The position numbers and the translations under genes are program-made. Of a DNA stretch of 64,000 nt, positions 11,950 to 12,560 are shown piece by piece. The stretch is from assembly GCA_009914755.4 (NCBI GenBank), contig CP086569.2, positions 11,424,001 through 11,488,000 of the forward strand, given 5' to 3'. The stretch is from the human T2T-CHM13v2.0 reference genome, Homo sapiens. The notes under the pieces are model-generated. The model had not been told where the DNA came from. It searched no databases and worked only from the letters and a program-made list of their open reading frames with translations. Each line of letters starts with the position of its first letter. Within the stretch, counting starts at the first letter, position 1.

Positions 11950-12560
11950 AACGTCTCCCGAGAACTGTGTGTTAGCACCGGGACAGATGGGCAAACTGAG
12001 CTACATGAGGGTTGGTAACCGGGTCTCTCAGCGGCAGGACAGGAGCGCGGCCTGCAGACTCCGGGCCCAGGGCCACCACCCTCGCCTACCCACTCCTGCG
12101 CCTCTGGAACCCGCTTCACTGCTGGGACCCCACGCCTGTCCTCCCAGCCCCCGCCAGGGTCCACGGCCCGCAAATGCACGTCAGGCCCCTCCTGCCCGCG
12201 ATGCGCTCACGCGTCTGCCCCCACAAATGGGGAACACTGGTCTGGCCCCCCAGGATCCCCCGAGGCCCACAGGTTCCTCTTCGCCCTCACACCTACCCAC
12301 AGGGACATAGAACCAAGCCCCAGGCCTGCTCAGCTACAGGACGGCCGCTGGGATCCGCACTTCCGGAGGAAAATGGCGAAGTGGGCGGGGCGGCGCATGC
12401 GCAGAGAGAAAAGCTGGTTCCCAAGGTCCTTCATGGTAACATCATTGGAAGGTGACACTACATTTCCTATGAGGCTCTGTGGTCCCCCGTTAGGAACGCA
12501 CGCCGGACATTCTGTTTTGCCCAGCAGTGAGTCCAGTTACCCGGAGACCCGGACTTGATG
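11950..12560. promoter_or_regulatory. CpG island / TATA-less promoter with clustered housekeeping-type motifs (direction unresolved)
   Basis: This is a CpG-dense GC-rich block in otherwise AT-rich DNA. Motifs present: ETS/GABP core CACTTCCGG at 12358-12366, YY1 core AAAATGGCG at 12370-12378, SP1 GGGCGGGG at 12383-12390, NRF1 palindrome GCGCATGCGC at 12393-12402, and a ZNF143/M4-type ACTACATTTCC at 12457-12467. A donor-like CATG|GTAACA lies at ~12432. Confidence 0.6.

What the first reader, a model, noticed from the sequence alone, without database searches (positions are those of the whole stretch)
11950..12560. CpG-island promoter with a compact ETS-YY1-SP1-NRF1 cluster and a ZNF143-type box, in a repeat desert
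An ~0.6 kb CpG-dense block sits in AT-rich, repeat-filled DNA. Within 45 bp it carries CACTTCCGG (GABP/ETS), AAAATGGCG (YY1 core), GGGCGGGG (SP1) and the palindromic GCGCATGCGC (NRF1). An ACTACATTTCC (ZNF143/SBS-like) box lies ~55 bp further 3'. This combination is characteristic of housekeeping and bidirectional human promoters. No convincing coding exon lies nearby. The short ATG-initiated ORF 12373-12558 ends at a GTAACA donor-like site and may be a 5'UTR or first exon. The locus may drive a lncRNA or a gene whose exons lie mostly outside the window, in either direction.
Basis: partly seen in the sequence, partly recalled or inferred. Interest (0 to 1): 0.6.

Follow-up and report, generated by a model that had tools for sequence, protein, structure and literature searches.

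The report
Ordinary weak CpG-island promoter, primate DNA
This is a small, borderline CpG island carrying a textbook cluster of housekeeping-promoter motifs, most likely a divergent RNA polymerase II promoter for a non-coding or distant gene; it is a known kind of element rather than a discovery.

Summary
Positions 11950-12560 are 63% G+C with 38 CpGs and CpG observed/expected 0.63, against 0.21 for the window. CACTTCCGG, AAAATGGCG, GGGCGGGG and GCGCATGCGC lie exactly at 12358-12402. Such a cluster never arose in composition-matched simulations. G/C skew changes sign beside the cluster, as at divergent promoters.

Several details are wrong or weaker than stated.
- The island only just passes the 0.6 threshold.
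- The window is repeat-rich, not a repeat desert; an Alu starts 140 bp away.
- GTAACA lies inside the 61-codon ORF, not at its end.
- The "ZNF143 box" misses the published consensus by one base and is not above chance on its own.

No coding exon was detected anywhere in the window apart from L1 and HERV-K remnants, and the ORF does not evolve like coding sequence.

Twenty primate-like contigs from public metagenome assemblies are collinear with 5.7-15.4 kb. All keep the island. Most carry a perfect ACTACAATTCCCA box, so the window copy looks degraded. The contigs are mosaics of one another, which suggests a multi-copy segment.

Transcription, gene identity and repeat annotation could not be checked here.

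Verdict: an ordinary CpG-island promoter of low interest.

The parts
11950..12560 (.). CpG-dense block (weak CpG island): 611 bp, G+C 0.633, 38 CpG, o/e 0.63
   Evidence: the merged criterion windows give 11851-12675
12000..12340 (-). C-rich (on +) arm of the island, G/C skew -0.24, A/T skew +0.11. It is G-rich if read on the minus strand and is the predicted leftward-transcribed arm.
   Evidence: mirror composition of divergent promoters is described in PMC3082894
12358..12366 (+). CACTTCCGG, a full ETS/GABP-type site (CCGGAAGTG on the minus strand)
   Evidence: the only copy in the window; identical in all 20 related contigs, but that was required by the search pattern
12370..12378 (+). AAAATGGCG, a YY1-type core. 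It also supplies the ATG of the 61-codon ORF.
12383..12393 (+). GGGCGGGGCGG, two overlapping GC boxes (SP1 type). Most related copies read GGGCCGGGCGG, with one box.
12393..12402 (.). GCGCATGCGC, an NRF1-type palindrome. It is intact in about half of the related copies, GCGCAAGCGC in most others, and disrupted by other substitutions in L010.
12444..12448 (-). CCAAT core (NF-Y-like) between the NRF1 site and the ACTACA box; flanking bases fit the NF-Y consensus only in part
   Evidence: unchanged in the related copies shown
12457..12482 (+). ACTACATTTCCTATGAGGCTCTGTGG, a degraded ZNF143/THAP11-type site (SBS2/M4). It scores 10/11 to ACTACANNTCCCA, fails the CCCR of M4, and scores 12/17 to the SBS consensus.
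   Evidence: consensus sequences from PMC3627581 and PMC5006282; 13 of 19 related copies read ACTACAATTCCCATGAGGCTTTGCGG
12373..12558 (+). 61-codon ATG ORF, judged non-coding
   Evidence: absent from the 15-billion-protein collection; 52 codons in most related copies, and all six changes seen are non-synonymous
12581..12586 (.). CACGTG E-box at the 3' shore of the island
   Evidence: 14 such sites in the window, so it is not significant alone
12702..13009 (-). AluS-type element that bounds the island on the right
   Evidence: two Metazoa_SRP-like half matches below the gathering score, typical of Alu

Best explanation
A TATA-less, CpG-island-type RNA polymerase II promoter in primate (human-like) DNA, probably firing divergently.

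Inferred mechanism:
- Ubiquitous activators (GABP or another ETS factor, YY1, SP1-family factors, NRF1, perhaps NF-Y, and formerly ZNF143/THAP11) bind a 45-bp to 125-bp core at 12358-12482.
- Their binding keeps the surrounding roughly 600 bp free of germline methylation, so CpGs are retained there.
- Transcription would start within a few tens of bases of the cluster. The longer, strongly skewed arm lies on the minus strand (12340 down to about 12000). A shorter arm lies on the plus strand, where the YY1 site is in its usual downstream sense orientation.
- The product is most likely a non-coding RNA, or the untranslated first exon of a gene whose other exons lie outside the window.

Shown here: the composition, the motifs, their non-randomness, the skew flip, retention of the island in related copies, and the absence of detectable coding exons.

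Inferred, not shown: factor binding, hypomethylation, TSS positions and the transcripts.
For: - CpG o/e is 0.63 against 0.19-0.22 in the flanks.
- Four full-consensus promoter motifs lie within 45 bp, seen once in the window and never in shuffles or simulations.
- G/C skew changes from about -0.3 to +0.2 at roughly 12300-12350. This mirror composition is described for divergent promoters. GABPA, NRF1, YY1, NFY and ACTACANNTCCC are the motifs reported as enriched in them (PMC3082894; PMC2077898).
- All 20 related contigs keep an island of 35-47 CpG with o/e 0.59-0.73.
- Near-fixed differences (80% or more of contigs) between window and contigs are as frequent in the island (24 in 611 bp) as in the flanks (74 in 2.1 kb). 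Only 8 involve CpG sites, far fewer than heavy methylation would predict.
- The region is single-copy within the window.
- No Rfam family or tRNA is present.
Against: - No expression, CAGE, chromatin or ChIP data could be consulted.
- The island is borderline and fails the stricter o/e 0.65 criterion.
- Divergence and diversity in the island are not lower than in the flanks, so there is no sign of purifying selection beyond CpG retention.
- The window copy has lost the canonical ZNF143/THAP11 box. It shows 7 CpGs present only in the contigs against 1 present only in the window, which could mean it is eroding.
- Candidate splice donors are weak and mostly not conserved.
- Conservation of the ETS, YY1 and GC-box motifs in the contigs was imposed by the search pattern.
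Confidence: 0.72

Rival explanations
1. A silenced or decaying promoter relic. On this reading the locus is one diverged copy of a duplicated segment, its promoter is no longer used, and the CpGs are being lost slowly.
For: - The related contigs are mosaics of one another: all are distinct, 0.6-3.2% apart, and 50% of informative site pairs fail the four-gamete test. The window differs from all of them by 3.7-5.8%.
- The window has the degraded ACTACATTTCCTA box, while 13 of 19 copies have the perfect ACTACAATTCCCA.
- CpG loss is asymmetric against the window, 7 to 1.
- The island is not more conserved than its flanks.
Against: - The window keeps 38 CpGs, within the 35-47 range of the other copies.
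- It has the intact NRF1 palindrome that about half of the copies lack, and a double rather than single GC box.
- A long-methylated block would have fallen well below o/e 0.6.
Confidence: 0.15
2. The block is part of an interspersed repeat, for example an old LTR such as MLT1J, which is reported to carry SBS2-type sites. The motifs would then be inherited from the repeat consensus.
For: - PMC3627581 reports that ZNF143-bound MLT1J elements contain SBS2 motifs.
- An LTR-like element lies at about 13600-13990.
Against: - No other copy of 11800-12700 exists in a window full of repeats.
- The related contigs are collinear over at least 9.6 kb, including the same Alus, so they are duplicated or orthologous segments rather than dispersed repeat copies.
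- Old LTRs are CpG-poor.
Confidence: 0.05
3. A protein-coding first exon. The ATG within the YY1 site would start translation of either the 61-aa ORF or a 21-codon exon ending at ATG|GTAACA (12435/12436).
For: - The ATG sits in AAAATGG context.
- The frame is open for at least 52 codons in 18 of 19 copies, and the GTAACA site is kept in 18 of 19.
Against: - All six amino-acid differences among copies are non-synonymous, and no synonymous change was seen.
- The ORF length varies between 27, 52 and 61 codons.
- The sequence is not in the 15-billion-protein collection.
- No Pfam or PDB match was found.
- No downstream coding exon was found in 51 kb.
Confidence: 0.04
4. An 'orphan' CpG island acting as a distal regulatory element (enhancer or architectural site) rather than as the promoter of a stable transcript.
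For: - No gene or exon is detectable in 64 kb.
- The setting is AT-rich, L1-rich and gene-poor.
Against: - The motif set and its tight spacing are those of core promoters, not enhancers.
- The skew flip suggests transcription on both sides.
Confidence: 0.08

Closest known systems
Human bidirectional/divergent CpG-island promoters enriched for GABPA, NRF1, YY1, NFY and ACTACANNTCCC (Lin et al. 2007 as summarised in PMC3082894; GABP work in PMC2077898)
   Same: - TATA-less and CpG-rich.
- GABP/ETS, YY1 and NRF1 sites at full consensus within 45 bp, GC boxes, and a CCAAT core.
- C-rich on one side and G-rich on the other.
   Different: - The ACTACANNTCCC element is one base off.
- The island is small and borderline.
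- Only the left arm shows strong skew.
- No gene pair or TSS pair could be shown.
HCFC1-associated active CpG-island promoters co-occupied by ZNF143, THAP11, YY1 and GABP (PMC3668359)
   Same: The same combination of motif types in one short stretch.
   Different: Occupancy is unknown here, and the window's THAP11/ZNF143 site fails the consensus.
ZNF143 SBS2 / THAP11 TBS / M4 motif (PMC3627581, PMC5006282)
   Same: The ACTACA module is followed two bases later by TCC. Related copies carry the exact ACTACAATTCCCA and 14/17 of the SBS consensus.
   Different: The window copy reads ACTACATTTCCTA...CTCTGTGG: 10/11 to TBS, M4 not met, SBS 12/17.
Promoter-bearing segmental duplications (core-duplicon type families) in primates
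   Same: A segment of at least 9.6 kb containing the island occurs in many slightly different, mosaic versions in primate DNA recovered from metagenome assemblies.
   Different: Copy number, host species and genomic positions are unknown. Only one copy lies in this 64-kb window.

Membership tests
CpG island (Gardiner-Garden and Frommer criteria, from my own knowledge) | Length at least 200 bp | tested here: met
   611 bp as given; 825 bp when qualifying windows are merged
CpG island (Gardiner-Garden and Frommer criteria, from my own knowledge) | G+C at least 50% | tested here: met
   63.3%
CpG island (Gardiner-Garden and Frommer criteria, from my own knowledge) | CpG observed/expected at least 0.6 | tested here: met
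   0.628, only just above the threshold; 200-bp windows range 0.61-0.66
CpG island (stricter Takai-Jones criteria, from my own knowledge) | At least 500 bp, G+C at least 55%, o/e at least 0.65 | tested here: not met
   Length and G+C pass; o/e 0.63 is below 0.65
Bidirectional CpG-island promoter | Enriched motif set: GABPA, NRF1, YY1, NFY, ACTACANNTCCC | tested here: inconclusive
   GABPA/ETS, YY1 and NRF1 are exact. Only the CCAAT core is present for NFY. ACTACANNTCCC is missed by one base.
Bidirectional CpG-island promoter | Mirror base composition: C and A on one side, G and T on the other | tested here: inconclusive
   The left arm has G/C skew -0.24 and A/T skew +0.11, as expected. The right arm has G/C skew only +0.07 overall (+0.12 to +0.23 in 12301-12450) and no T excess.
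Bidirectional CpG-island promoter | Two transcription start sites on opposite strands less than 1 kb apart | not testable with these tools
   No transcript, CAGE or annotation resource for this genome is available here.
ZNF143 SBS2 / THAP11 TBS / M4 site | ACTACANNTCCCA (TBS) and ACTAYRNNNCCCR (M4) | tested here: not met
   The window reads ACTACATTTCCTA: 10/11 and 9/10. One-mismatch matches are at chance level in the window. Fourteen of 19 related copies meet TBS and M4; L032, not scored there, has a mutated ACTACA module.
ZNF143 SBS2 / THAP11 TBS / M4 site | 18-bp SBS consensus YWCCCRNMATSCMYYRCR | tested here: inconclusive
   12/17 specified positions match in the window, and 13-14/17 in related copies. 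No binding data.
LTR or other interspersed repeat | Other copies of the same sequence elsewhere; match to a repeat consensus | tested here: inconclusive
   No second copy in the 64-kb window. No repeat library (Dfam/RepeatMasker) was available.
Protein-coding first exon | Reading frame kept and evolving under purifying selection; homologous proteins exist | tested here: not met
   ORF length varies (27, 52 or 61 codons), changes are all non-synonymous, and there are no matches.
Small RNA gene promoter (snRNA / Pol III type 3, which also use ZNF143) | A known small RNA gene about 200 bp downstream of the SBS | tested here: not met
   No Rfam match other than Alu in 10500-14500 at E<=1, and none in the window at gathering scores.

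The most novel reading that the evidence does not exclude
The island belongs to a promoter-bearing segment of at least 9.6 kb that exists in many copies in a catarrhine genome. The copies would exchange sequence by gene conversion. The window holds an older, diverged member whose ZNF143/THAP11 site has decayed while its NRF1 site and double GC box survive. On this reading it is a duplicated non-coding-RNA promoter family in which individual copies are diverging in regulatory input.
Probability: 0.2. Interest if true: 0.35.

Novelty: already known. Interest (0 to 1): 0.14.

Why it matters
It matters little by itself. CpG-island promoters with GABP, YY1, SP1, NRF1 and ZNF143-type sites are among the best described elements of mammalian genomes, and a locus like this is almost certainly already in public CpG-island and regulatory-element tracks.

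The useful results are mainly corrective:
- The island is borderline.
- It is not in a repeat desert.
- The ZNF143 box is a degraded copy.
- The short ORF is not coding.

The one thread that could add something is the evidence that the segment exists in several mosaic versions in primate DNA. If confirmed, that would make it a small natural experiment in how duplicated promoters lose and keep individual factor sites.

Tried and rejected
**Gene identification by protein similarity**
- Stop-to-stop ORFs were concatenated and searched against PDB sequences. Coverage was: + strand 12.3-64 kb (ORFs >=35 aa), - strand 1-10.4 kb (>=28 aa), - strand 12.45-64 kb (>=42 aa) and + strand below 12.3 kb (>=60 aa). 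ORFs mostly made of Alu were left out. Other repeat blocks (L1, HERV-K, LTR-like) were also left out of the + strand 12.3-64 kb queries.
- Only L1 ORF1p/ORF2p and HERV-K gag, protease, dUTPase and RT matched. These hits serve as a positive control for the method.
- A CFAP61 hit maps to an L1 ORF2 fragment.
- Pfam on the strand-consistent ORF sets found no families.

**The large protein database**
- Two searches gave no hits.
- I give these negatives little weight. The ZBTB2 test returned only short fragments and no full-length mammalian protein, so coverage of mammalian proteomes seems patchy.

**Other attempts that led nowhere**
- Exact look-up of ten local ORFs: none is on record.
- A crude exon finder (splice-site weight matrices from memory plus human codon usage) produced 18 candidates, none with meaningful coding potential.
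- Literature searches for promoter 16-18-mers and for the contig accession prefixes gave nothing.
- The scan of viral contigs gave nothing. The scan of prokaryote genomes gave only 8 hits, all in bacterial contigs and none aligning to the window.

**Readings I considered and rejected**
- Clean orthologues from several monkey species. No two contigs are closer than 0.6%, and half of the informative site pairs are incompatible with any tree.
- That the extra tails of contigs L008 and L015 show genomic context. L008's tail is 100% E. coli. L015's tail is a ZBTB2 exon joined at an Alu. Both are assembly chimeras.
- A provirus-like LTR pair around the island. The 2292-2799 and 18995-19501 copies are inverted and only 72% alike.

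Full report
**Setting**

- It has 39% G+C and CpG o/e 0.21.
- It holds about 25 Alu copies.
- L1 sequence lies at about 15.2-18.9 kb (+) and 20.7-26 kb (-). The latter matches human L1 ORF1p and ORF2p structures over almost their whole length.
- A HERV-K-like gag-protease-dUTPase-RT remnant lies at about 33.1-37.5 kb (-).
- It is therefore repeat-rich, not a repeat desert.

**The observation**

Positions 11950-12560 are 611 bp with G+C 0.633, 38 CpGs and CpG o/e 0.628. The 1.8-kb flanks have o/e 0.19 and 0.22. Merging 200-bp windows that satisfy G+C>=0.5 and o/e>=0.6 gives 11851-12675. The block meets the classical island criteria only narrowly and fails the stricter o/e 0.65 criterion.

- CACTTCCGG at 12358-12366
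- AAAATGGCG at 12370-12378
- GGGCGGGG at 12383-12390, overlapped by a second GGGCGG
- GCGCATGCGC at 12393-12402

ACTACATTTCC starts at 12457.

The cluster is well beyond chance.
- The ETS-YY1-GC-box composite and the NRF1 palindrome each occur once in 64 kb and in none of 100 dinucleotide-preserving shuffles.
- In 20,000 Markov sequences with the island's own dinucleotide content, the per-island frequencies were 0.021 (ETS), 0.008 (YY1), 0.15 (GC box) and 0.0007 (NRF1). None had three or more motifs.

A CCAAT core lies on the minus strand at 12444-12448, between the cluster and the ACTACA box.

**Details that do not hold**

- GTAACA is at 12436-12441, inside the ORF 12373-12558, which ends at a TGA.
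- The ACTACA box reads ACTACATTTCCTA. It misses the THAP11 site ACTACANNTCCCA and the M4 motif ACTAYRNNNCCCR by one base. It matches 12 of 17 specified positions of the ZNF143 consensus YWCCCRNMATSCMYYRCR (consensus sequences from PMC3627581 and PMC5006282).
- One-mismatch matches to ACTACANNTCCCA occur four times in the window against 1.4 expected, so the box alone is not significant.

**Strand and start-site clues**

G/C skew on the plus strand is -0.24 to -0.42 across 12050-12350. It turns to +0.12 to +0.23 across 12300-12450. The left arm is also A-rich over T. This mirror composition, and enrichment of GABPA, NRF1, YY1, NFY and ACTACANNTCCC, are the published marks of divergent promoters (PMC3082894; GABP in PMC2077898).

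The longer, more skewed arm points to minus-strand transcription leftwards from about 12340. The YY1 site has its ATGGCG on the plus strand, the orientation I recall as usual just downstream of a start site. That fits a plus-strand start a little upstream of 12370. I therefore favour divergent initiation, but this is inference.

Splice-donor-like sites are weak:
- Plus strand: 12451 and 12526.
- Minus strand: 12297, 12293 and 11574.

**No gene found**

- There is no Rfam family or tRNA in the window. Only Alu-derived SRP-like half matches lie next to the island.
- Concatenated open frames from the four strand-and-region sets listed under 'tried and rejected' matched only L1 and HERV-K proteins among PDB sequences.
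- The strand-consistent sets matched no Pfam family.
- A crude splice-site plus codon-usage scan found nothing exon-like.
- None of ten local ORFs is in the 15-billion-protein collection.
- The large protein database gave no hits. Its coverage of mammalian proteins looks patchy, so I give this little weight.

The promoter thus most likely drives a non-coding RNA, or a first exon whose partners lie more than 12 kb to the left or more than 51 kb to the right.

**Related sequences**

A scan of public metagenome contigs for ACTTCCGG-N-AANATGGCG-N-GGGCGG returned 34 loci. Twenty are ENA/MGnify contigs of 2.3-9.3 kb that are collinear with window 5746-15357, including the same Alus.

Outside two tandem-repeat regions, the window differs from them by 3.7-5.8%. 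They differ from one another by 0.6-3.2%. All are distinct, and 50% of informative site pairs show all four allele combinations.

Blocks of five to eight linked differences reassort among contigs. This excludes clean orthologues from separate species, and also individuals of one species.

With their low node ranks and k-mer coverages of 2-17, the simplest reading is collapsed, mosaic assemblies of a multi-copy segment from contaminating primate DNA. The host species is unknown.

Two contigs are plainly chimeric:
- L008 is joined to 100%-identical E. coli sequence.
- L015 is joined at an Alu to a ZBTB2 exon.

**What the copies say about the element**

- Every copy keeps an island of 35-47 CpGs with o/e 0.59-0.73.
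- Near-fixed differences from the window (shared by 80% or more of contigs) are about as frequent in the island (24 in 611 bp) as in the flanks (74 in 2.1 kb). Only eight touch CpG sites, much less than sustained methylation would produce. Seven of those eight are CpGs missing from the window.
- Overall divergence and diversity are higher in the island than beside it. There is therefore CpG protection, but no sign of general purifying selection.
- The ETS and YY1 sites are identical everywhere, but the search required that.
- Among features not required by the search:
  - The NRF1 palindrome is intact in about half of the copies and GCGCAAGCGC in most of the rest.
  - The GC box is single (GGGCCGGGCGG) in most copies.
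  - Thirteen of 19 copies carry ACTACAATTCCCATGAGGCTTTGCGG, an exact THAP11/M4 site with 14/17 of the ZNF143 consensus. One further copy (L026) keeps the exact THAP11/M4 core, with T at the free position after ACTACA.
- The window's box, shared by four contigs apart from one downstream base (C for T at 12480), therefore looks like a decayed version of a real site.
- The 61-codon ORF is 52 codons in most copies and 27 in one. All six amino-acid differences are non-synonymous, so it does not behave as coding sequence.

**Verdict**

The sequence facts are right, and the promoter reading is the best one (confidence about 0.7). It is a textbook kind of element, it is borderline in strength, and its activity cannot be shown here.

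The main rival is a silenced relic copy in a duplicated segment. The repeat, coding-exon and orphan-island readings are less likely.

The multi-copy, mosaic relatives are the only unusual aspect. They could be settled in minutes with a reference genome browser.

Noticed in passing
window 5746-15357; loci L002, L003, L005, L007-L011, L013, L015, L016, L019, L020, L022, L025, L026, L030-L032, L034: Twenty metagenome-assembly contigs are collinear with this stretch. They are 3.7-5.8% from the window and 0.6-3.2% from one another, and they are mutually mosaic (half of site pairs fail the four-gamete test). This suggests a multi-copy primate segment assembled from contaminating host DNA. The host species and copy number are unknown.
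   Followed up: partly
L008:1-840 and L015:5228-5705: These are chimeric assemblies. The L008 head is 100% identical to an E. coli fimbrial chaperone region. The L015 tail encodes a ZBTB2 exon joined to the primate segment inside an Alu.
   Followed up: yes
L020:180-1040 and L026:3225-4132 (window 8627-9546): In two contigs this 0.9-kb stretch is only 82-85% identical to the window and to the other contigs, although the two are 97% alike. Elsewhere they are 97-99% like the rest. L026 and L031 both stop matching the window near 8591-8639.
   Followed up: no
window 7160-7403 and 9542-9709: Two minisatellites: a 35-bp unit x7 (also read as 105 bp x2.2) and a 42-bp unit x3.9. The first is expanded in contigs L002 and L011.
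   Followed up: partly
window 20706-25990 (-) and 15250-18916 (+): Two L1 blocks. The minus-strand one matches human ORF2p (1640 bits in 11 pieces) and ORF1p across nearly their whole length with broken frames, so it is a fairly young but dead L1.
   Followed up: partly
window 33100-37500 (-): A HERV-K-like internal region with gag, protease, dUTPase and reverse-transcriptase remnants (PDB matches 8c9m, 6ssj, 2d4l, 7sr6). No LTRs were identified.
   Followed up: partly
window 21082-21525 (-): An L1 ORF2 C-terminal fragment gives a weak PDB match to a 'Cilia- and flagella-associated protein 61' chain (9d2f_J, E 6e-8). I presume this is an L1-derived stretch in that deposited sequence.
   Followed up: no
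window 45326-45964 (+): A 213-codon stop-free frame in AT-rich, T-skewed DNA with no Pfam, PDB or database match and a low-complexity L/S-rich translation; probably chance.
   Followed up: partly
window 1000-3000, and 2292-2799 versus 18995-19501: A G+C-rich (52-55%) but CpG-poor stretch with several 130-146-codon open frames. Part of it is an inverted 72%-identical copy of a repeat also present at 19 kb. A second old repeat pair lies at 940-1395 and 8145-8537 (about 80% identical).
   Followed up: no
window 13600-13990 (+): An LTR-like element, with a TATAA-type box and a polyadenylation-like signal, lies 1 kb from the island. It is not repeated in the window.
   Followed up: no
window 48776-49100 and 26951-27200: Other short stretches that meet the CpG-island window criteria coincide with Alu elements (young, CpG-rich repeats), not with unique sequence.
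   Followed up: partly
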